The notes under the pieces were generated by a model. That model was not told the origin of the DNA, made no database searches, and saw nothing but the letters and a program-made list of their open reading frames with translations. Below, one piece after another: positions 5,839-15,546 of a stretch of 18,478 nt of DNA. Each line of letters opens with the position of its first letter. Within the stretch, counting starts at the first letter, position 1. Origin of the DNA: a virus (Duplodnaviria; Heunggongvirae; Uroviricota; Caudoviricetes); the IMG/VR virus record IMGVR_UViG_2671180637_000005, one strand, 5' to 3'. Position numbers and translations under genes: made by a program.

Positions 5839-7333
5839 TGATGTGATTGGCGTTTTTTCACCAGGATGGAAAGCGGCAAGGCTGCGTTCCCGTACGGTGA
5901 TCCAGGCTTATGAGGCCGTAAAAACGACGCGGACACACAAAGCCCGGCGGGAAAACCGAACTGCCGACCAGTTAAGCCAGTACGGGGCCGTGTCGTTACG
6001 TGAGCAGGCCCGTTACCTTGATAACAACCACGATCTGGTTATTGGTGTATTTGATAAGCTGGAAGAACGGGTGGTGGGGAAAAACGGGATTATTGTCGAG
6101 CCACATCCGGTATTACGCAATGGGGCCATTGCCCGTGACCTGGCTGCGGAGATTCGCACCCGATGGAGTGAATGGTCTGTCAGCCCGGAAGTCACCGGGC
6201 AGTTTACCCGTCCGATGCTGGAACGTCTGATGCTGCGTACCTGGCTGCGCGATGGTGAGGTGTTTGCCCAGATGGTTTCCGGGCGCATAAACAGCCTGAC
6301 GCCTTCTGCCGGTGTTCATTTCTGGCTGGAGGCGCTCGAGCCGGACTTTATTCCCATGACCAGTGATGAGAGCAACAGGCTGAATCAGGGCGTGTTTGTT
6401 GATGACTGGGGGCGTCCCGAAAAATATCTGGTGTATAAAAGCCGTCCCGTATCCGGACGGCAGATGGAAACCAAAGAAGTGGATGCAGAGCGAATGCTGC
6501 ATCTTAAATTTGTTCGCCGTCTGCACCAGATGCGCGGGACGTCTTTATTGTCCGGTGTGCTGATCCGCCTCAGTGCTCTGAAAGAGTATGAAGATTCTGA
6601 GCTGACTGCAGCAAGGATCGCCGCTGCTCTGGGGATGTACATCCGGAAAGGCGACGGGCAGAGCTATGAAGCGGATGGTAATGGCAGCAAGGATAAGGAA
6701 CGCGAGCTTACCATTCAGCCAGGCATTATTTACGACGATCTGAAACCCGGCGAAGAAATCGGAATGGTGAAGTCGGATCGTCCCAATCCTAACCTTGAAA
6801 CTTTTCGTAATGGTCAGTTGCGTGCCGTGGCGGCGGGCAGTCGTCTGAGTTTTTCCAGTACGGCACGCAACTATAACGGCACTTACAGCGCCCAGCGTCA
6901 GGAGCTGGTTGAATCCACTGATGGCTACCTGATCCTGCAGGACTGGTTTATTGGTGCCGTCACCCGCCCGATGTATCGTGCCTGGCTGAAACTGGCTGTG
7001 GCATCCGGTGTTATCAGGCTACCCCGCGATCTTGATCGTTCTTCACTGTATACCGCGGTGTATTCCGGACCGGTGATGCCGTGGATTGACCCTGTTAAGG
7101 AGGCTGAGGCCTGGAAAATTCAGATTCGTGGTGGAGCGGCGACAGAATCAGACTGGGTACGTGCAGGTGGTCGTAATCCGGATGATGTCAAACGTCGGCG
7201 CAAGGCCGAAATTGATGAAAACCGCAAGCTGGATCTGGTATTTGATACCGATCCGGCCAGTGATAAAGGAGGCAGCAGTGCCGCAACGAAACGACAGGAG
7301 CCGCAGCACACCGACGACCAGTCCGAAGAATAA
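5825..7333 (+). CDS. portal protein (lambda gpB family)
   Basis: ~500 aa ORF between terL and the protease/capsid gene. ORF is open from GTG 5792; ATG 5825 with GAGG 7 nt upstream preferred. Acidic C-terminal tail. Confidence 0.85.
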   Translation: MAILDDVIGVFSPGWKAARLRSRTVIQAYEAVKTTRTHKARRENRTADQLSQYGAVSLREQARYLDNNHDLVIGVFDKLEERVVGKNGIIVEPHPVLRNGAIARDLAAEIRTRWSEWSVSPEVTGQFTRPMLERLMLRTWLRDGEVFAQMVSGRINSLTPSAGVHFWLEALEPDFIPMTSDESNRLNQGVFVDDWGRPEKYLVYKSRPVSGRQMETKEVDAERMLHLKFVRRLHQMRGTSLLSGVLIRLSALKEYEDSELTAARIAAALGMYIRKGDGQSYEADGNGSKDKERELTIQPGIIYDDLKPGEEIGMVKSDRPNPNLETFRNGQLRAVAAGSRLSFSSTARNYNGTYSAQRQELVESTDGYLILQDWFIGAVTRPMYRAWLKLAVASGVIRLPRDLDRSSLYTAVYSGPVMPWIDPVKEAEAWKIQIRGGAATESDWVRAGGRNPDDVKRRRKAEIDENRKLDLVFDTDPASDKGGSSAATKRQEPQHTDDQSEE

Positions 7334-7346
7334 TTCCTGGTTCAGG

Positions 7347-9305
7347 ATGCAGGCAGGTCACCAGAGTGACGCGGATATTTATATTTATGACGAGATTGGT
7401 TTCTGGGGTGTTACAGCGAAGCAGTTTATCAGTGATCTGAATGCACTGGGCGATATCACCCACATTAATCTCCATATTAATTCACCGGGTGGCGATGTCT
7501 TTGAAGGCATCGCCATTTTTAATGCACTGAAAACACATGGTGCGTCCATTACCGTTTATGTCGACGGTGTGGCGGCGTCAATGGCGTCGGTCATTGCGAT
7601 GGTGGGAAGCCCGGTCATTATGCCGGAAAACTCCTTCATGATGATTCATAAACCATTTGGCTTTACGGGCGGTGATGCGGAGGACATGCGCACCTATGCC
7701 GACCTGCTCGATAAAGTTGAGGCGGTTCTGTTACCCGCTTATGCACAGAAAACCGGGAAAACCACCGATGAAATTGCTGCCATGCTGGCGGATGAGACCT
7801 GGATGTCCGGTGCCGAATGTCTGGCACATGGATTTGCTGATCAGGTGACGCCAGCCGTTAAGGCAATGGCATGTATTCAGTCAAAACGTACAGAGGAATT
7901 TAAAAAGATGCCGGAATCCATTCGAAACATGATTACTCCGCCACGCAACAGTGCTCCACGCGTACAGGATAATGAACCTGCAGCTTCCCGGACGCCAGTG
8001 CAGGCAGCAGCACCCGTGGTGGATGAAAACAGTATCCGTGCGCAGGTACTGGCAGAGCAAAAAGCGCGTGTAAATGGTATTAATGATCTGTTTGCCATGT
8101 TTGGCGGGCGTTATCAGATGCTGCAGGCTCAGTGTCTTGCCGATCCTGAATGTTCGCTGGAGCAGGCCCGCGAAAAGCTGTTGAACGAGATGGGGCGCGA
8201 GTCCACGCCATCCAATAAAAATACCCCGGCTCATATTTATGCCGGTAACGGTAATTTTGTGGGGGACGGGATCCGCCAGGCGCTGATGGCGCGTGCCGGA
8301 TTTGAAAAAACCGAACGTGATAATGTCTACAACGGGATGACCCTGCGTGAATATGCCCGTATGTCACTGACTGAACGGGGTATTGGGGTTTCCGGTTATA
8401 ACCCGATGCAGATGGTCGGTGCGGCGTTCACACACAGTACGTCTGACTTCGGTAATATTCTGTTGGATGTTGCGAACAAAGCCATTCTGCAGGGCTGGGA
8501 AGATGCCCCTGAAACCTATGAACAGTGGACGCGGAAAGGTCAGTTGTCTGATTTTAAAATTGCCCATCGTGTGGGTATGGGGGGCTTCAGTGCTCTGCGT
8601 CAGGTGCGTGAAGGGGCGGAATATAAATACGTCACCACCGGAGATAAACAGGCCACTATTGCACTGGCGACCTATGGCGAGCTGTTCAGTATCACCCGTC
8701 AGGCCATTATCAATGATGATCTGAATATGCTGACCGATGTCCCGATGAAACTGGGCCGTGCGGCGAAATCCACTATTGCCGATCTGGTTTATGCCATTCT
8801 GACGTCTAACCCGAAAATCTCCACAGATAATGTAAGTCTGTTCGATAAAGCGAAACATGCAAACGTACTGGAGAGCGCTGCAATGGACGTGGCATCGCTG
8901 GATAAAGCCCGCCAGTTGATGCGCGTTCAGAAAGAGGGGGAGCGTCATCTGAATATTCGTCCTGCGTTCGTACTGGTACCGACGGCGATGGAGTCTGTTG
9001 CTAACCAGGTCATTCGCTCCTCAAGTGTCAAGGGGGCTGACATTAACGCCGGTATTATTAACCCGGTGAAAGATTTTGCGACCGTTATTGCAGAGCCTCG
9101 TCTTGATGATAACAGCCAGACCACCTTCTACCTGGCTGCGTCAAAAGGCTCCGATACGATTGAAGTGGCTTATCTCAACGGTGTGGATACGCCATATATT
9201 GATCAGATGGAGGGCTTCAGTGTGGATGGCGTGACAACGAAAGTGCGTATTGACGCCGGTGTCGCGCCAGTTGATCACCGCGGTCTGGTGAAATGTACGG
9301 CGTAA
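7347..9305 (+). CDS. prohead protease (ClpP/S14-like) fused to scaffold-like linker and HK97-fold major capsid protein
   Basis: N-terminal ClpP-like domain (INSPGGDVFEGIAIFNALK...GVAASMASVIAMVG...MIHKP), ~150-aa linker, C-terminal ~350 aa capsid-like domain. Frame is open from 7086, overlapping the portal; ATG 7347 just after the portal stop is chosen, with weak RBS, so the start is uncertain. Confidence 0.8.
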   Translation: MQAGHQSDADIYIYDEIGFWGVTAKQFISDLNALGDITHINLHINSPGGDVFEGIAIFNALKTHGASITVYVDGVAASMASVIAMVGSPVIMPENSFMMIHKPFGFTGGDAEDMRTYADLLDKVEAVLLPAYAQKTGKTTDEIAAMLADETWMSGAECLAHGFADQVTPAVKAMACIQSKRTEEFKKMPESIRNMITPPRNSAPRVQDNEPAASRTPVQAAAPVVDENSIRAQVLAEQKARVNGINDLFAMFGGRYQMLQAQCLADPECSLEQAREKLLNEMGRESTPSNKNTPAHIYAGNGNFVGDGIRQALMARAGFEKTERDNVYNGMTLREYARMSLTERGIGVSGYNPMQMVGAAFTHSTSDFGNILLDVANKAILQGWEDAPETYEQWTRKGQLSDFKIAHRVGMGGFSALRQVREGAEYKYVTTGDKQATIALATYGELFSITRQAIINDDLNMLTDVPMKLGRAAKSTIADLVYAILTSNPKISTDNVSLFDKAKHANVLESAAMDVASLDKARQLMRVQKEGERHLNIRPAFVLVPTAMESVANQVIRSSSVKGADINAGIINPVKDFATVIAEPRLDDNSQTTFYLAASKGSDTIEVAYLNGVDTPYIDQMEGFSVDGVTTKVRIDAGVAPVDHRGLVKCTA

Positions 9306-9993: not shown

Positions 9994-10572
9994 ATGAAGG
10001 GGCTTGAGAATGCCATCCGTAATCTGAACAGCCTTGATACCCGGATGGTACCGCAGGCCAGTGCATGGGCGATAAACCGTGTGGCACAGAAAGCCGTTTC
10101 GGTTGCCACACATAAGGTCGCACAGAATACCGTGGCAGGGGATAACCGGGTGAAGGGGATCCCTTTCCGGCTGGTGAAAGAACGTGTCCGGGTACTGAAA
10201 GCCAGTCCGTCAGGAAAAATGTATGCCCGCATTCGCATTAACCGGGGCAACCTGCCCGCCATTAAGCTGGGGGCAGCCCGGGTCAGACTGGCCCGTCGTG
10301 GCGGAAAACTGCGGTACCGTGGCAGTGTGCTGAAGGTGGGGAAATATCTTTTCCGGGATGCGTTTATTCAGCAACTGGCGAATGGTCGCTGGCATGTGAT
10401 GCGGCGTATTGATGGCAAAAATCGTTACCCCATTGATGTGGTGAAAGTCCCGCTGTCCGGACCGCTGACACAGGCATTTGAAGATGCCCGCGACCGCATC
10501 ATTGCTGCGGAAATGCCGAAACAGCTGGGGTATGCACTGAAACAACAACTGAGATTATGGCTGACCCGATGA
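9994..10572 (+). CDS. Z: tail completion protein Z (lambda gpZ-like)
   Basis: 192 aa, same length as lambda Z; MKGLENA..., ...NGRWHVMRRIDGKNRYPIDVVKVP... match recalled lambda Z. Confidence 0.85.
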   Translation: MKGLENAIRNLNSLDTRMVPQASAWAINRVAQKAVSVATHKVAQNTVAGDNRVKGIPFRLVKERVRVLKASPSGKMYARIRINRGNLPAIKLGAARVRLARRGGKLRYRGSVLKVGKYLFRDAFIQQLANGRWHVMRRIDGKNRYPIDVVKVPLSGPLTQAFEDARDRIIAAEMPKQLGYALKQQLRLWLTR

Positions 10573-10980: not shown

Positions 10981-11724
10981 ATGACCACACCAAATCCACT
11001 GGCAAAGACGAAAGGTGCGGGGACGACGTTCTGGATGTATACCGGCAACGGCGATGCGTTTGCGAATCCTTTGTCGGACACTGACTGGCTGCGTCTTGCG
11101 ATGGTGAAGGATCTGCAACCTGGCGAAATGACCGCTGATGCAGAAGATGACACTTATCTCGATGATGAAGATGCAGACTGGAAAACGACAACCCAGGGGC
11201 AGAAATCCGTCGGTGATACTTCGGCGACGCTGGCCTGGCGTCCGGGTGACAGCGGACAGAAAAAACTGGTTCAGTTGTTCGACTCCGGTGAAGTCTGCGC
11301 GTTTCGTATCAAATATCCCAACGGTACTGTTGATGTTTTCCGTGGCTGGCTGAGTTCACTGGGTAAAACCATTGCCTCAAAAGACGTGATGACCCGCACC
11401 GTGAAAATCAGCGGTGTGGGGCGTCCATATCTGGCAGAGGAGGGCTCTGAAACCGTGGGCGTTACCGGGCTGACGGTGGCACCGGCATCCGCCAGTGTCA
11501 ATGTGGGAGCAACCACCACGCTGACCTTTACAGTAAAACCTGACGGAGCCAGTGACAAAGCGATCAGTGTGCATTCGACAGATCCACAGACTGCCACGGT
11601 GACCCTGAACGGGCTTGTGGCCACGGTGAAAGGCGTGAAGCAGGGCAGTGTCAGCATTGTGGGCATGACTTCTGACGGCGATTTTGTGGCAGTGGCTACG
11701 GTGGCTGTCAGCGCCGCAGGTTAA
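10981..11724 (+). CDS. V: major tail protein V (lambda gpV-like) with C-terminal Ig-like domain
   Basis: MTTPNPLAKTKGAGTTFWMYTGNGDAFANPLSDTDW... closely matches lambda V; strong RBS GGAGGTGG. C-terminal ~90 aa looks like a bacterial Ig-like (Big_2-type) domain, as in lambda V. Confidence 0.9.
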   Translation: MTTPNPLAKTKGAGTTFWMYTGNGDAFANPLSDTDWLRLAMVKDLQPGEMTADAEDDTYLDDEDADWKTTTQGQKSVGDTSATLAWRPGDSGQKKLVQLFDSGEVCAFRIKYPNGTVDVFRGWLSSLGKTIASKDVMTRTVKISGVGRPYLAEEGSETVGVTGLTVAPASASVNVGATTTLTFTVKPDGASDKAISVHSTDPQTATVTLNGLVATVKGVKQGSVSIVGMTSDGDFVAVATVAVSAAG

Positions 11725-11744: not shown

Positions 11745-11768
11745 GCCCCGGTTATCCGGGGCTTTTTT
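11745..11768 (+). terminator. terminator/attenuator-like hairpin between V and G
   Basis: GCCCCGG-TTAT-CCGGGGC followed by TTTTTT (11763-11768), in the V-G intergenic space. Confidence 0.5.
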
Positions 11769-11781
11769 GCAGGTGGAGAAC

Positions 11782-12171
11782 ATGATGTTTCTGAAACAGG
11801 GCACGTTTAATTATGAAAAACAGTCCGTGGTGCTCAGTGAGCTGTCCGGGCTGCAGAGAATTGAATATCTGGCGTTTGTTCAGCAGCGAACGGCAAAGTT
11901 TGATGCCGAAGAGGGAGAACTGCCGGAGGCTGAACGACAGATTGCTTTTCTGCGGATGGGGATGGATATCAATGCCTGGCTGGTTTCCCGCTCACTGTGG
12001 AATGCGGAACAGTCTCAGGATGTTGAGACGCTTTGCGCATCCGTTATTACAACATGGTCGTATGATGCCCTGGGAGCGGGGGCGGAGATGGTTCTGTCGC
12101 TGAGCGGTATGGGAGCCATTGAGAATGCCGGGGATTTGGAGCATGAGGTGCTGACGCCGGAAAAGTCCTGA
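11782..12171 (+). CDS. G: tail assembly chaperone G (lambda gpG-like)
   Basis: MMFLKQGTFNYEKQSVVLSELSGLQRIEYLA... resembles lambda G (MFLKTESFEHNGVTVTLSELSALQRIEHLA...). RBS GGTGGAG; the ORF track begins at an upstream TTG, ATG 11782/11785 preferred. Confidence 0.85.
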   Translation: MMFLKQGTFNYEKQSVVLSELSGLQRIEYLAFVQQRTAKFDAEEGELPEAERQIAFLRMGMDINAWLVSRSLWNAEQSQDVETLCASVITTWSYDALGAGAEMVLSLSGMGAIENAGDLEHEVLTPEKS

Positions 12172-12509
12172 CGCGGGAAATGCAGTTTGTCATGCGGCTT
12201 GCCCGGGAGTTCCGGCGGGCAGACTGGCGGCGGATGCTGTCGGAAATGTCGGCCACTGAGCTTGGTGAGTGGGGCGATTATTTCCGGATGCAGAGCTTCA
12301 GTGATGTGTGGATGGATGCGCAGTTTGCCTCGCTGAAGGCATTGATCGTGAGAATGGTGTCCGGCAGCAGTGATGCTGCGGTGGCTGATTTCAGCCTTTT
12401 ACCGGAAGAGAACGGGATACCGGAGCGAACGGACGAAGAACTGATGCATCTTGGGGAAGGTATTTCCGGAGGTGTGCGTTATGGACCAGATAGCCAACCT
12501 GGTCATTGA
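11782..12509 (+). CDS. tail assembly chaperone G-T fusion made by a programmed -1 frameshift near the end of G
   Basis: The T reading frame (12180-12509 ORF, ...ADWRRMLSEMSATELGEWGDYF...) is -1 relative to G and is open from 12147, overlapping the last 22 nt of G. Candidate slip site G GAA AAG at 12159-12165. Same arrangement as lambda G/GT. Confidence 0.7.
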
Positions 12510-15500
12510 TTTGGGGATTGATGCGGCAGAGTTTAAAAATGAAATTCCCCGTATCAAAAACCTTCTGAATGGTGCAGCCAGCGATGCAGAACGGTCTTCT
12601 GCCCGTATGCAGCGTTTTATGGAGCGTCAGACTCAGGCCGCCCGGCAGACAACGCAGGCGGCTTCTTCGGCTGCAACAGCCGCATCCGTCCATGCGCAGA
12701 CGGTGGAGAAAAACGCACAGGCTCATGAACGCATGGCCCGCGAGGTGGAGAAAACCCGCCAGCGCATGGAGGCACTGAGCCAGAAAATGCGCGAGGAACA
12801 GGCGCTGGCCATGGCTCTGGTGGAGGCTCAGGATAAAGCGGCTGCTGCGTTTTATCGTCAGATTGACAGTGTGAAACAGGCCAGTGCGGGGCTGCAGGAA
12901 TTACAGCGTATTCAGCAGCAGATCCGACAGGCCAGAAACAGTGGCGGGATTGGTCAGCAGGATTATCTGGCGCTGATTTCTGAGGTTGCTGCGAAAACCC
13001 GTGTTCTTACACAGGCTGAGGCAGAGGCTACCCGACAGAAAGTGGCGTTTATCCGTCAGCTCAAAGAGCAGGCAACCCGCCAGAATCTTTCATCTTCTGA
13101 GTTGCTTCGTGCTAAGGCAGCCCAGCTGGGGGTAAGCAGTGCTGCAGAAGTGTATATCCGCAAAATGGAGCAGGCAGGAAAAGCCACGCATTCGCTGGGT
13201 CTGAAAAGTGCAGCAGCCCGCCAGGAGATAGGCGTTCTGATAGGTGAACTGGCCCGCGGCAATTTAGGGGCGCTGAGGGGATCCGGGATAACGCTGGCTA
13301 ACCGTGCCGGATGGATAGACACACTGATGTCACCGAAAGGCATGATGCCAGGCGGGGTTATTGGCGGTATTGCCGCGGCCGTCTATGGTCTGGGTAAAGC
13401 CTGGTATGACGGTCAGAAGGAGGGGGAAGAATTTAACCGCCAGTTGTCGCTGACGGGGCATTATGCCGGAGTCACTGCCGGGCAGCTGTGGACGCTCAGT
13501 CGTGCTATTTCCGGGAATGGTATCACGCAACATGCTGCAGCCGGTGCGCTGGCTCAGGTGGTGGGGAGTGGTGCATTTCGTGGAAACGATATCGGTATGG
13601 TGGCGAGAGCTGCCGCACAGATGGAGCGATCGGTTGGCCAGTCGGTCAGCGATACCATAAATCAGTTTAAGCGGCTGACGGATGATCCTGTAAATGCCGC
13701 GAAGGCTCTGGACAATGAGCTGCATTTTCTTACTGCCACTCAGCTTGAGCAGATACGCGTCCTTGGGGAGCAGGGGCGGTCCAGTGATGCTGCACGGATA
13801 GCCATGTCTGCACTGGCGGAGGAAACCGGTCGGCGTACTGCGGATATTGATAATAACCTCAATGCGCTGGGTAGTACGCTGCAAACCTTGTCTGACTGGT
13901 GGAAGCAGTTCTGGGATGCGGCCATGAATATTGGTCGTGAAGATTCGCTGGATGCGCAGATTGCCACTTTGCAGGAGAAAGTGTCGCGGGCGAAAAGACT
14001 CCCCTGGACGGCATCATCTTCTCAGGTTGAATACGATCAGCAGCGTCTTAACGATCTTCAGGAGAAAAAACGCCAGAAGGATTTGCAGGATGCAAAAGAG
14101 CAGGCAGAGCGGAATTATCAGGAGCAACAGAAACGCCGTAATGCTGAAAATGCTGCACTGAACCGGATGAATGAAACGGAAGCAGCACGACATCAGCGTG
14201 AAATTGCGCGTATTAATGCCATGCAGTACGCCGATCAGGCTGTCAGGGATGCGGCGATACAACGTGAAAATGAACGTTACGAGAAAGCCCAGGCATCCGG
14301 TAAGAAAAAAACACGCGAAACCCGTAATGATGAGGCCACCCGGTTATTGCTGCAGTACAGTCAGCAACAGGCACAGGTGGAAGGACAGATTGCTGCTGCC
14401 AGACAGTCAGCAGGCATTGCCACGGAAAGGATGACAGAAGCGCATAAACAGCTTCTGGCTCTGCAGCAGCGCATCAGCGACCTGGACGGGAAAAAACTGA
14501 CGGCAGATGAAAAGAGTGTGCTGGCCCGTAAAGATGAACTGATTCAGGCACTGACGCTGCTGGATGTAAAACAGCAGGAGCTTCAGAAACAGACGGCACT
14601 CAACGATCTGAAGAAAAAAACAATTCAGCTGACCAGTCAACTGGCTGAAGAAGAGCGCGCTCAGCGTCAGCAACATGACCTGGATATCGCCACGGTGGGT
14701 ATGGGTGATCAGCAGCGACAGCGATATCAGGTACAACTGAGTCTTCGCCAGAAATACCAGCAACAGCTGGAGCAGTTGAGGCGGGATAGTGAGCAGAAAG
14801 GGACATATAACACGGATGACTACAGAAAGGCCGAGCAGGCGCTGACGGAGAGCCTGAACCGACAACTGAATGAGAATCGCCGTTACTGGCAACAGCTTGA
14901 AGTTGTGCAGGGTAACTGGAAAAACGGAGTCCTGCGTGCATTTCAGGATTTTACCGTGGATGCAGATAATACGGCAGGAACAGCAGAACAGGTGTTCTCG
15001 TCAGCCTTCAGCAACATGGGAAATGGCCTGGCAACTTTTGTCACTACCGGCAAACTCAATTTCAAATCCTTCACCTCTTCTGTGCTGTCAGATATGGCGA
15101 AAATCCTGGCGCAGGCAACCATGATGAAATCGATAAAAGGGATTGGCAGTGTACTGGGATTTGATCTCAGCAGCCTTTCCCTGAATGCCAATGGGGGGAT
15201 TTATCAGTCTGCTGATTTGAGTCGTTACAGTGGCACGGTGGTTAACCGTCCGACGTTTTTTGCTTTTGCAAAAGGCGCGGGTGTGATGGGGGAAGCGGGA
15301 CCTGAAGCCATTCTGCCACTGCGTCGTGGTGCTGACGGTAAGCTGGGGGGTGTGGCGGATATTGGGGGTTCAGGTATGGCGATGTTTGCCCCGCAGTACA
15401 ACATCGAGATCAATAACGATGGCACGAACGGGCAGATAGGTCCGGCTGCCCTGAAGGTGGTTTATGACCTCGGGAAAAAAGCGGCAGCGGACTTTATGCA

Positions 15501-15546
15501 ACAGCAGGCCCGTAATGGTGGTCGGTTAAGTGGAGCATATCGGTAA
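12481..15546 (+). CDS. H: tail tape measure protein H (lambda gpH-like)
   Basis: ~1020 aa; start MDQIANLVIDLGIDAAEF with RBS GGAGG; C-terminus INNDGTNGQIGPAALKVVYDL... matches lambda H. Long Q/E/R/A-rich coiled-coil-like centre. Confidence 0.9.
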   Translation: MDQIANLVIDLGIDAAEFKNEIPRIKNLLNGAASDAERSSARMQRFMERQTQAARQTTQAASSAATAASVHAQTVEKNAQAHERMAREVEKTRQRMEALSQKMREEQALAMALVEAQDKAAAAFYRQIDSVKQASAGLQELQRIQQQIRQARNSGGIGQQDYLALISEVAAKTRVLTQAEAEATRQKVAFIRQLKEQATRQNLSSSELLRAKAAQLGVSSAAEVYIRKMEQAGKATHSLGLKSAAARQEIGVLIGELARGNLGALRGSGITLANRAGWIDTLMSPKGMMPGGVIGGIAAAVYGLGKAWYDGQKEGEEFNRQLSLTGHYAGVTAGQLWTLSRAISGNGITQHAAAGALAQVVGSGAFRGNDIGMVARAAAQMERSVGQSVSDTINQFKRLTDDPVNAAKALDNELHFLTATQLEQIRVLGEQGRSSDAARIAMSALAEETGRRTADIDNNLNALGSTLQTLSDWWKQFWDAAMNIGREDSLDAQIATLQEKVSRAKRLPWTASSSQVEYDQQRLNDLQEKKRQKDLQDAKEQAERNYQEQQKRRNAENAALNRMNETEAARHQREIARINAMQYADQAVRDAAIQRENERYEKAQASGKKKTRETRNDEATRLLLQYSQQQAQVEGQIAAARQSAGIATERMTEAHKQLLALQQRISDLDGKKLTADEKSVLARKDELIQALTLLDVKQQELQKQTALNDLKKKTIQLTSQLAEEERAQRQQHDLDIATVGMGDQQRQRYQVQLSLRQKYQQQLEQLRRDSEQKGTYNTDDYRKAEQALTESLNRQLNENRRYWQQLEVVQGNWKNGVLRAFQDFTVDADNTAGTAEQVFSSAFSNMGNGLATFVTTGKLNFKSFTSSVLSDMAKILAQATMMKSIKGIGSVLGFDLSSLSLNANGGIYQSADLSRYSGTVVNRPTFFAFAKGAGVMGEAGPEAILPLRRGADGKLGGVADIGGSGMAMFAPQYNIEINNDGTNGQIGPAALKVVYDLGKKAAADFMQQQARNGGRLSGAYR

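What the first reader, a model, noticed from the sequence alone, without database searches (positions are those of the whole stretch)
12147..12171. G/GT programmed -1 frameshift with a slip site one base different from lambda's
The T frame is -1 relative to G and overlaps only the last 22 nt of G (12147-12168). The only A-AAG-type slip candidate in that overlap is G GAA AAG (12159-12165), whereas lambda uses G GGA AAG. A-site Lys slippage (AAG to AAA) is preserved but the P-site codon is GAA (Glu) rather than GGA, which may change efficiency and the G:GT ratio. Predicted junction: ...LTPEK then VLTREMQFVMRLAREF...
Basis: partly seen in the sequence, partly recalled or inferred. Interest (0 to 1): 0.45.

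Follow-up and report, generated by a model that had tools for sequence, protein, structure and literature searches.

The report
Ordinary phage tail-chaperone G/GT frameshift site
This is the usual lambda-type tail-chaperone gene pair (G and T) joined by a programmed -1 ribosomal frameshift; its slip sequence G GAA AAG is the commonest form in enterobacterial prophages and is already annotated in phage N15.

Summary
Window 11785-12171 encodes a lambda gpG homolog. The -1 frame is open from 12147 and encodes a gpT homolog ending at 12509. The 22-nt overlap holds one slip-prone site in the right phase, G GAA AAG at 12159-12165. The predicted junction is ...LTPEK|VLTREMQF.

The heptamer is not unusual. 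GenBank record AF064539 (phage N15) annotates GGAAAAG at the homologous position as the "slippery sequence for -1 translational frameshift". Gifsy-2, HK225, mEp213 and Eeyore carry it there too.

In a one-genome-per-species survey, 40 of 54 distinct G/T junctions use GGAAAAG and 5 use lambda's GGGAAAG. Synonymous positions of the heptamer are fixed, while the same codon families vary freely elsewhere in the same G genes. This indicates selection on the nucleotide sequence.

I found no downstream RNA structure beyond shuffled controls. An upstream SD-like GAGG is only a lead.

The locus belongs to an mEp460/cdtI-type lambdoid prophage found in 1849 of 5426 complete E. coli genomes. None of the four annotations read for this phage type joins G and T; T is called from an unconserved ATG at 12180. 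That is an annotation gap, not new biology. Frameshift efficiency and the GT protein itself remain untested. Interest is low.

The parts
10981..11724 (+). Major tail tube protein gene (lambda gpV homolog with a C-terminal Ig-like domain); upstream neighbour of G
   Evidence: PF16461 E 1.2e-66 and PF02368 E 2.4e-11; annotated as major tail protein in Ayreon, mEp460 and RefSeq
11745..11770 (+). Terminator-like G+C hairpin plus T run between V and G
   Evidence: Consensus scan; annotated as a terminator in mEp460 and Ayreon, and as a putative terminator stem-loop at the same place in N15. Function not tested.
11785..12171 (+). Tail assembly chaperone gene G (128 aa; alternative start ATG 11782)
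   Evidence: PF06894 Phage_TAC_2 E 1.7e-39; RefSeq 'phage tail assembly chaperone G' WP_001300035.1
12145..12149 (+). SD-like GAGGT, 9 nt upstream of the heptamer; candidate stimulator only
   Evidence: GAGG is kept in sister haplotypes, although base 12149 varies T/C. SD-like cores occur at -17..-6 in 22/54 junctions against 11% background in the same G genes. This is confounded by the acidic (GAG/GAA-rich) C-terminus of G.
12147..12168 (+). G / -1-frame overlap; the only stretch in which a -1 shift can join G to T
   Evidence: -1 frame stop at 12144-12146, G stop at 12169-12171
12159..12165 (+). Slip heptamer G GAA AAG (zero-frame codons Glu GAA and Lys AAG; -1 frame GGA AAA)
   Evidence: Only in-phase Z_ZZN site in the overlap. 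Identical to N15's annotated slippery sequence. Present at the homologous position in 40/54 distinct junctions. Synonymous sites fixed. Invariant in 80 IMG/VR loci.
12165..12509 (+). T-domain coding sequence in the -1 frame (114 aa after the shift, then the stop). GT fusion = 11785-12165 joined to 12165-12509, 241 aa.
   Evidence: PF06223 Phage_tail_T E 5.1e-15; fusion translation; alignment with T of lambda, N15, Gifsy-2 and others
12180..12182 (+). ATG used as the T start in public annotations; probably an internal Met of GT
   Evidence: Annotated as the start in mEp460, Tritos and RefSeq. It aligns with Leu in Gifsy-2, Citrobacter L103, N15 and lambda. The invariant Glu of the T alignment lies upstream of it.
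12481..15546 (+). Tail tape measure gene (lambda gpH homolog); downstream neighbour, overlapping the T 3' end by 29 nt
   Evidence: PF06791 E 7.7e-49 and PF09718 E 3.2e-22; annotated start

Best explanation
Most ribosomes translating G terminate at TGA 12169 and make the 128-aa chaperone gpG. A small fraction slip back one base on G GAA AAG (12159-12165) while Glu-tRNA occupies the P site on GAA and Lys-tRNA the A site on AAG. Lys-tRNA re-pairs with AAA. Glu-tRNA re-pairs with GGA through G-C, G.U and A-U pairs. Translation continues from GTC at 12165 in the -1 frame to 12509, giving a 241-aa GT fusion with junction ...LTPEK-VLTREMQF.... By homology with lambda, the G part of GT would bind the tape measure H and the T part would recruit the tail tube protein V. 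Shown here: the frames, the homologies, the unique in-phase slip site, and its nucleotide-level conservation at the homologous position. Inferred: that slippage occurs, its efficiency, the tRNA pairing details, and the assembly role.
For: (1) Frames and the unique in-phase A_AAG in a 22-nt overlap. (2) G is PF06894 and T is PF06223, between V and H in a lambda-order block of terminase, portal, protease-capsid, Z, U, V, G, T, H, M, L. (3) The same heptamer at the homologous position is annotated as the -1 slippery sequence in N15 record AF064539. Gifsy-2's T is annotated as part of a frameshift hybrid. (4) The heptamer sits at a fixed offset from the T alignment in 75 loci analysed. Of 54 distinct contexts, 40 are GGAAAAG, spread over more than 20 genera, with divergent flanks. 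(5) Synonymous control: elsewhere in the same G ORFs Lys is AAG in 37%, Glu is GAA in 57%, and the third codon base is G in 33%. At the site AAG is 51/54 and GAA 42/42. The preceding codon ends in G in 52/54, across eight different codons. (6) The conserved T sequence begins upstream of ATG 12180 (invariant Glu). That ATG is Leu in relatives of 54-66% identity, so they have no start codon there. (7) A_AAG is by far the most -1 shift-prone tetramer in E. coli (Sharma 2014, PMC4066793). Shifting at NNA_AAG with a non-repetitive 5' codon is documented (Atkins 2016, PMC5009743). G.U-assisted re-pairing of Glu-tRNA from GAA to GGA is discussed for phage chaperone sites (PRFect, PMC10885494).
Against: There is no direct evidence for a GT protein in this phage type. 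The exact 241-aa fusion is absent from a collection of about 15 billion proteins, and none of the four annotations read joins the ORFs. G GAA AAG is not a canonical X_XXY_YYZ heptamer. Without a stimulator, A_AAG alone was barely above background in a reporter (about 0.15%). I found no downstream structure better than shuffles (z -0.96 and +0.38). The surveyed loci are phylogenetically related, so the counts overstate the number of independent events.
Confidence: 0.9

Rival explanations
1. T is made as a free 109-aa protein from ATG 12180, as every public annotation of this phage type implies. This could occur by termination-reinitiation after the G stop 8 nt upstream, and no frameshift would be needed.
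For: ATG 12180 exists, is invariant in close relatives and lies 8 nt after the TGA of G. The 109-aa product is deposited on at least 1000 contigs as 'tail assembly protein T'.
Against: The ATG is CTT in Gifsy-2 and CTG in Citrobacter L103, and Leu in N15 and lambda, while the heptamer is kept. The only SD-like bases (GGGAA) abut the ATG, a spacing far too short for a ribosome binding site (inference). T-frame conservation extends upstream of the ATG. The nucleotide-level fixation of the heptamer would be left unexplained. From established knowledge of lambda (Xu et al. 2013/2014, cited in PMC5009743), T acts as part of GT, tethered through its G part.
Confidence: 0.06
2. The shift is essentially a single-tRNA (A-site Lys) slip on A_AAG. 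P-site re-pairing would be irrelevant, so the GAA versus GGA difference from lambda would have no mechanistic meaning.
For: Heptamer position 3 varies across the family: A in 78% of junctions, otherwise G, T or C. Examples are G GTA AAG in Pantoea and G GCA AAA in Ewingella and Kluyvera, where mid-codon re-pairing is a mismatch. A_AAG shifts with unrelated 5' codons in cdd and IS1222.
Against: Position 1 is G in 52/54 junctions even though it is a synonymous third base of eight different codons. Position 2 is G in 54/54. This fits a need for the P-site tRNA to re-pair at its first codon position. Efficiency at NNA_AAG is reported to depend on the 5' codon.
Confidence: 0.25
3. The heptamer is a chance feature of a Glu-Lys dipeptide in G, and the G/T arrangement is a decayed or non-functional remnant.
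For: GGAAAAG is not rare in the window (6 copies against 2.65 expected).
Against: The locus is intact in viable phages (Ayreon, mEp460, phi458, cdtI). The heptamer is fixed at synonymous sites across genera and always falls in the G/T overlap.
Confidence: 0.01

Closest known systems
Phage N15 genes 14/15 (GenBank AF064539): annotated -1 frameshift with slippery sequence GGAAAAG
   Same: Identical heptamer in the same phase at the homologous position of the G/T alignment. Same V-G-T-H gene order and a terminator-like hairpin before G.
   Different: About 36% protein identity. N15's G continues for 5 codons after the heptamer (PSPVS*) against 1 codon here (S*). N15 has no ATG right after the G stop.
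Phage lambda G/GT programmed -1 frameshift at G GGA AAG (Levin, Hendrix and Casjens 1993; Xu, Hendrix and Duda 2004, 2013, 2014, as cited in PMC5009743)
   Same: Homologous G and T (PF06894, PF06223), same neighbours, a -1 shift on an ...A AAG site near the end of G, and an aligned junction K|V. No downstream RNA structure beyond shuffles was found here; that lambda also lacks a known stimulator is from my own knowledge.
   Different: Heptamer position 3 is A, not G, so the P-site codon is Glu GAA re-pairing to GGA with a central G.U, instead of Gly GGA re-pairing to GGG. The overlap is 22 nt against 61 nt. T is 114 aa after the shift against 144 aa (lambda has a duplicated C-terminal GGVRY motif). 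About 36% identity.
Salmonella prophage Gifsy-2 STM1039 / STM1041.1n ('G+G' frameshift hybrid')
   Same: Closest annotated relative that recognises the frameshift, at 54% identity. Same ...ACG CCG GAA AAG TCC TGA ending of G.
   Different: No ATG after the G stop (CTT at that position). The slip site itself is not annotated.
A_AAG tetranucleotide -1 shift sites with a non-repetitive 5' codon (B. subtilis cdd A_CGA_AAG; IS1222 G_CGA_AAG)
   Same: The A-site Lys-tRNA slips from AAG to AAA while the P-site codon cannot re-pair perfectly (review PMC5009743; reporter data PMC4066793).
   Different: These are unrelated genes. Here the P-site tRNA can still form two Watson-Crick pairs plus a G.U. From my own knowledge, those cases depend on an SD-like or structural stimulator; none is established here.

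Membership tests
Lambda-type tail assembly chaperone G/GT with programmed -1 frameshift | Two short ORFs between the major tail tube gene and the tape measure gene | tested here: met
   V 10981-11724, G 11785-12171, T frame 12147-12509, H 12481-15546; the rest of the block is in lambda order
Lambda-type tail assembly chaperone G/GT with programmed -1 frameshift | Upstream ORF homologous to gpG | tested here: met
   PF06894, 134.9 bits, E 1.7e-39, cutoff 27
Lambda-type tail assembly chaperone G/GT with programmed -1 frameshift | Downstream ORF in the -1 frame, homologous to gpT, overlapping the end of G | tested here: met
   PF06223, 56.1 bits, E 5.1e-15, cutoff 25.9; 22-nt overlap in the -1 frame
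Lambda-type tail assembly chaperone G/GT with programmed -1 frameshift | Slip-prone sequence in G-frame phase inside the overlap, conserved among relatives | tested here: met
   G GAA AAG at 12159-12165; homologous position in 75 loci analysed, 54 distinct contexts; synonymous sites fixed
Lambda-type tail assembly chaperone G/GT with programmed -1 frameshift | T has no start codon of its own | tested here: inconclusive
   An ATG is present at 12180 in this phage type and is used by annotators. It is not conserved in relatives of 54-66% identity and has no properly spaced SD.
Lambda-type tail assembly chaperone G/GT with programmed -1 frameshift | A GT fusion protein is produced at a low ratio to G and is required for tail assembly | not testable with these tools
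   Needs protein work. The exact fusion sequence is not deposited anywhere in the collection searched.
Canonical X_XXY_YYZ tandem-slippage heptamers | Positions 1-3 identical and positions 4-6 identical, so both tRNAs re-pair at their non-wobble positions | tested here: not met
   GGA AAA G: position 3 is A, not G. G contains no canonical heptamer. The site belongs to the looser G_GNA_AAR pattern of this family and matches PRFect's 'twofour' motif by name.
N15-type G GAA AAG slip site | Heptamer GGAAAAG with GAA and AAG as zero-frame codons at the homologous G/T junction | tested here: met
   N15 misc_feature 10027-10033 reads GGAAAAG; same phase and alignment position

The most novel reading that the evidence does not exclude
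The majority G GAA AAG site is intrinsically weaker than lambda's G GGA AAG because Glu-tRNA must accept a central G.U pair. On this reading, lineages such as this one compensate with an SD-like GAGG 9-10 nt upstream and a stop codon 0-1 codons downstream. Different lambdoid tails would then be tuned to different G:GT ratios by a stimulator that lambda itself lacks.
Probability: 0.12. Interest if true: 0.3.

Novelty: already known. Interest (0 to 1): 0.08.

Why it matters
Practically, it matters for annotation. This prophage type is present in about a third of complete E. coli genomes. All four annotations I read list G and a truncated T separately, so the GT fusion is missing from those protein sets; the exact fusion sequence is also not deposited. 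Scientifically it adds little. The G/GT frameshift is a textbook case, and this heptamer is already annotated in N15. The survey shows it is the commonest form, so lambda is the atypical member. Measuring how the G_GNA_AAR variants differ in efficiency would be a modest, incremental study of P-site near-cognate re-pairing.

Tried and rejected
(1) A downstream stimulatory RNA structure. The 100 nt and 50 nt after the heptamer fold no better than dinucleotide shuffles (z -0.96 and +0.38), so I rejected it as unsupported.

(2) An upstream SD-like stimulator. GAGGT lies 9 nt upstream. SD-like cores are enriched at -17..-6 (22/54 against 11% background). However, the region encodes an acidic tail rich in GAG/GAA, N15-type and lambda junctions lack the motif, and base 12149 varies T/C within the close family. 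I kept it as a lead only.

(3) Rarity of the heptamer itself. It is not significant: 6 copies against 2.65 expected.

(4) The IMG/VR scan with the single T protein returned only 100%-identical T sequences among the best 80. That was useful for showing invariance but not for diversity, which came from the alignment-based genome scan and tblastn against phages.

(5) Looking for a deposited GT fusion by exact sequence found none.

(6) Primary literature: Xu et al. 2004 (Mol Cell) and Licznar et al. 2003 (EMBO J) are not held in the library. Statements about them rest on the Atkins 2016 review or on my own knowledge, and are marked as such. A full-text search for 'GGAAAAG' with frameshift and tail gave nothing relevant among the 20 papers listed of 335 that hold all three terms.

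(7) The Bock 2019 dnaX variant set contains no GAA P-site variant.

Full report
OBSERVATION. In the G frame the sequence reads ...GAG GTG CTG ACG CCG GAA AAG TCC TGA, with the stop at 12169-12171. The -1 frame carries a TGA at 12144-12146 and is then open from 12147 to a stop at 12507-12509. I listed every Z_ZZN site in G-frame phase across the gene. Only A_AAG at 12162-12165, within G GAA AAG at 12159-12165, falls inside the overlap, and G has no canonical X_XXY_YYZ heptamer anywhere. Joining 11785-12165 to 12165-12509 gives a 241-aa protein with junction ...HEVLTPEK|VLTREMQFVMRLAREF..., as predicted.

WHAT THE GENES ARE. The upstream ORF matches Pfam PF06894, the lambda tail assembly chaperone gpG (E 1.7e-39). 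The -1 frame ORF matches PF06223, minor tail protein T (E 5.1e-15). The neighbours are a lambda-type tail tube protein with an Ig-like domain and a tape measure protein. The wider window carries terminase large subunit, lambda-family portal, a ClpP-protease/capsid fusion, Z, U, then V, G, T, H, M, L.

The DNA is 97.8-99.7% identical to phages phi458, Ayreon, mEp460, cdtI, Tritos and others. It occurs in 1849 of 5426 complete E. coli genomes. None of the four annotations read for this phage type joins G to T. T is called from ATG 12180 in mEp460, Tritos and RefSeq, and from an even later start in Ayreon. The exact 241-aa fusion is absent from the 15-billion-protein collection, while the separate G and T products each occur on at least 1000 contigs.

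COMPARISON WITH RELATIVES. A tblastn search of the fusion against phage records found 186 records. Gifsy-2 is the closest outside the immediate family (54% identity). N15 and lambda are at about 36%. I extracted the G/T junction from 14 annotated phages:
- G GAA AAG: this family, Gifsy-2, N15, HK225, mEp213 and Eeyore.
- G GGA AAG: lambda (as DE3), Turner, PhiR5_1 and PhiR12_1.
- A AAA AAG: the Stx1 and Stx2 phages examined.

In every case the heptamer lies at the same place relative to the T alignment. The post-shift sequence follows the pattern K-[VA]-[LF]-x-x-E-[LM]-x-F-...-LAREF.

The decisive point is the N15 GenBank record AF064539. It carries a misc_feature "slippery sequence for -1 translational frameshift" at 10027-10033, and that sequence is GGAAAAG. 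Gifsy-2's T is annotated as part of a "G+G' frameshift hybrid protein". HK225 and mEp213 point to the N15 frameshift product in their notes.

HOW COMMON IS IT? I aligned seven diverse T sequences and scanned one genome per species (GTDB set), which returned 78 loci. For each locus a script found the -1 frame opening, the G stop and the in-phase slip candidates. Collapsing identical 67-nt contexts left 54 distinct junctions:
- GGAAAAG: 40 junctions, in Escherichia, Shigella, Citrobacter, Enterobacter, Klebsiella, Kluyvera, Kosakonia, Proteus, Providencia, Serratia, Sodalis, Phytobacter and others, more than 20 genera in all.
- GGGAAAG: 5 junctions, namely lambda-identical sequences, one E. coli, E. 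albertii and Edwardsiella.
- GGTAAAG: 4 junctions (Pantoea).
- GGCAAAA: 2 junctions.
- AGAAAAG: 2 junctions (Morganella).
- GGGAAAA: 1 junction.

The window's heptamer is thus the majority form and lambda's is a minority form. The family consensus is G-G-N-A-A-A-R. Positions 2, 4, 5 and 6 are invariant, position 1 is G in 96%, and position 3 is A in 78%. Two caveats apply. The scan was seeded with T-family peptides, and the loci are related by descent, so the counts are not independent events.

IS THE CONSERVATION AT THE NUCLEOTIDE LEVEL? Yes, judged by an internal control. Elsewhere in the same 54 G ORFs, Lys is AAG in 37% of cases (126 of 338), Glu is GAA in 57%, and the third codon base is G in 33%. 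At the slip site Lys is AAG in 51/54 and Glu is GAA in 42/42. The preceding codon ends in G in 52/54, although it is any of eight codons (CCG, GCG, CTG, TTG, ACG, GTG, AAG, ATG). That preceding G is not decoded in the -1 frame by a shifted ribosome. Its fixation is best explained by the P-site tRNA needing G at the first position of its new codon (inference).

Among 80 IMG/VR loci of the immediate family there are 11 haplotypes of window 12100-12200. All variable sites lie at or before 12149, and 12150-12200 is invariant.

MECHANISM. Established facts support the slip. A_AAG is by far the most -1 shift-prone tetramer in E. coli, reaching up to 5.6% with a strong pseudoknot but only about 0.15% without one (Sharma et al. 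2014, PMC4066793). Shifting at NNA_AAG depends on the 5' codon and its tRNA (Atkins et al. 2016, PMC5009743). From textbook knowledge of E. coli tRNA anticodons, Lys-tRNA (UUU) moves from AAG to AAA. Glu-tRNA (UUC) moves from GAA to GGA, keeping G-C and A-U pairs with a central G.U. The PRFect authors discuss exactly this GAA-to-GGA re-pairing for other phage chaperone sites, and their motif list includes a 'twofour' pattern that by its name would fit GGAAAA (PMC10885494).

I found no downstream structure more stable than shuffled controls. From my own knowledge, no stimulator is known for lambda either. An SD-like GAGGT lies 9 nt upstream. Such cores are about four-fold enriched at -17..-6 across the family (22/54 against 11%). 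This is confounded by the acidic coding sequence and is absent from N15-type and lambda junctions, so it remains a lead.

RIVALS. Independent translation of T from ATG 12180 is unlikely to be the functional route, for four reasons. The ATG is Leu (CTT or CTG) in Gifsy-2 and in a Citrobacter prophage with 66% identity, and Leu in N15 and lambda. It has no properly spaced SD. An invariant Glu of the T alignment lies upstream of it. It would also leave the fixation of the heptamer unexplained. Some reinitiation 8 nt after the G stop cannot be excluded.

Whether the slip is a two-tRNA or a one-tRNA event is open. Variable position 3 argues for a relaxed P-site requirement, while fixed positions 1 and 2 argue for some P-site contribution.

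VERDICT. It is a standard lambda-family G/GT frameshift using the heptamer already annotated in N15, which is the commonest form in Enterobacterales prophages. The only practical outcome is an annotation correction for a very widespread E. coli prophage. The efficiency and the G:GT ratio remain unmeasured.

Noticed in passing
window 11745-11770: Terminator-like hairpin GCCCCGG-TTAT-CCGGGGC followed by TTTTTT lies between the major tail gene V and G. It is annotated as a terminator in mEp460 and Ayreon, and as a putative terminator stem-loop at the same place in N15. It might lower G/T/H expression relative to V.
   Followed up: partly
L148-L154, L156-L160, L168-L170, L172 (genome-contig hits): G/T junctions identical to phage lambda sit on contigs of assemblies labelled Neobacillus, Oceanobacillus, Kitasatospora, Pseudomonas, Shewanella, Chromatium, Leeuwenhoekiella, Enterococcus, Pseudoxanthomonas, Psychrobacter and others. 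Several of these contigs are short or have coverage near 1. This is most likely lambda control-DNA contamination of those assemblies.
   Followed up: no
L097 (MAG 'Bacillota bacterium') and L139 (MAG 'Geobacteraceae bacterium'): These metagenome-assembled genomes carry G/T loci identical or nearly identical to E. coli / Enterobacter prophages, which suggests mis-binned contigs.
   Followed up: no
L112, L115, L117, L118, L125, L162 (Proteus, Providencia): The G stop codon follows the heptamer directly (GGAAAAG TAG). In the window one codon intervenes, and in N15 and lambda five do. The distance from slip site to stop varies freely within the family.
   Followed up: partly
L140, L142, L143, L145 (Pantoea); L104, L106; L108, L109; L146: Further heptamer variants occur at the homologous junction: G GTA AAG, G GCA AAA, A GAA AAG and G GGA AAA. 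The family pattern is G_GNA_AAR, with a poorly re-pairing P-site codon in several lineages.
   Followed up: partly
window 12145-12150: SD-like GAGGTG lies 9 nt upstream of the heptamer; sister haplotypes have GAGGCG. SD-like cores occur at -17..-6 in 22/54 junctions against 11% background. This is a possible stimulator, but it is confounded by the acidic coding sequence.
   Followed up: partly
window 12481-12509: The tape measure gene start (ATG 12481) overlaps the 3' end of the T frame by 29 nt, in a different frame.
   Followed up: no
window 7086-9305: A single long ORF combines a ClpP-type protease domain (PF00574, residues 95-255) with a phage capsid domain (PF25209, residues 441-736). It is a prohead protease/major capsid fusion, unlike lambda's separate C/Nu3 and E genes.
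   Followed up: partly
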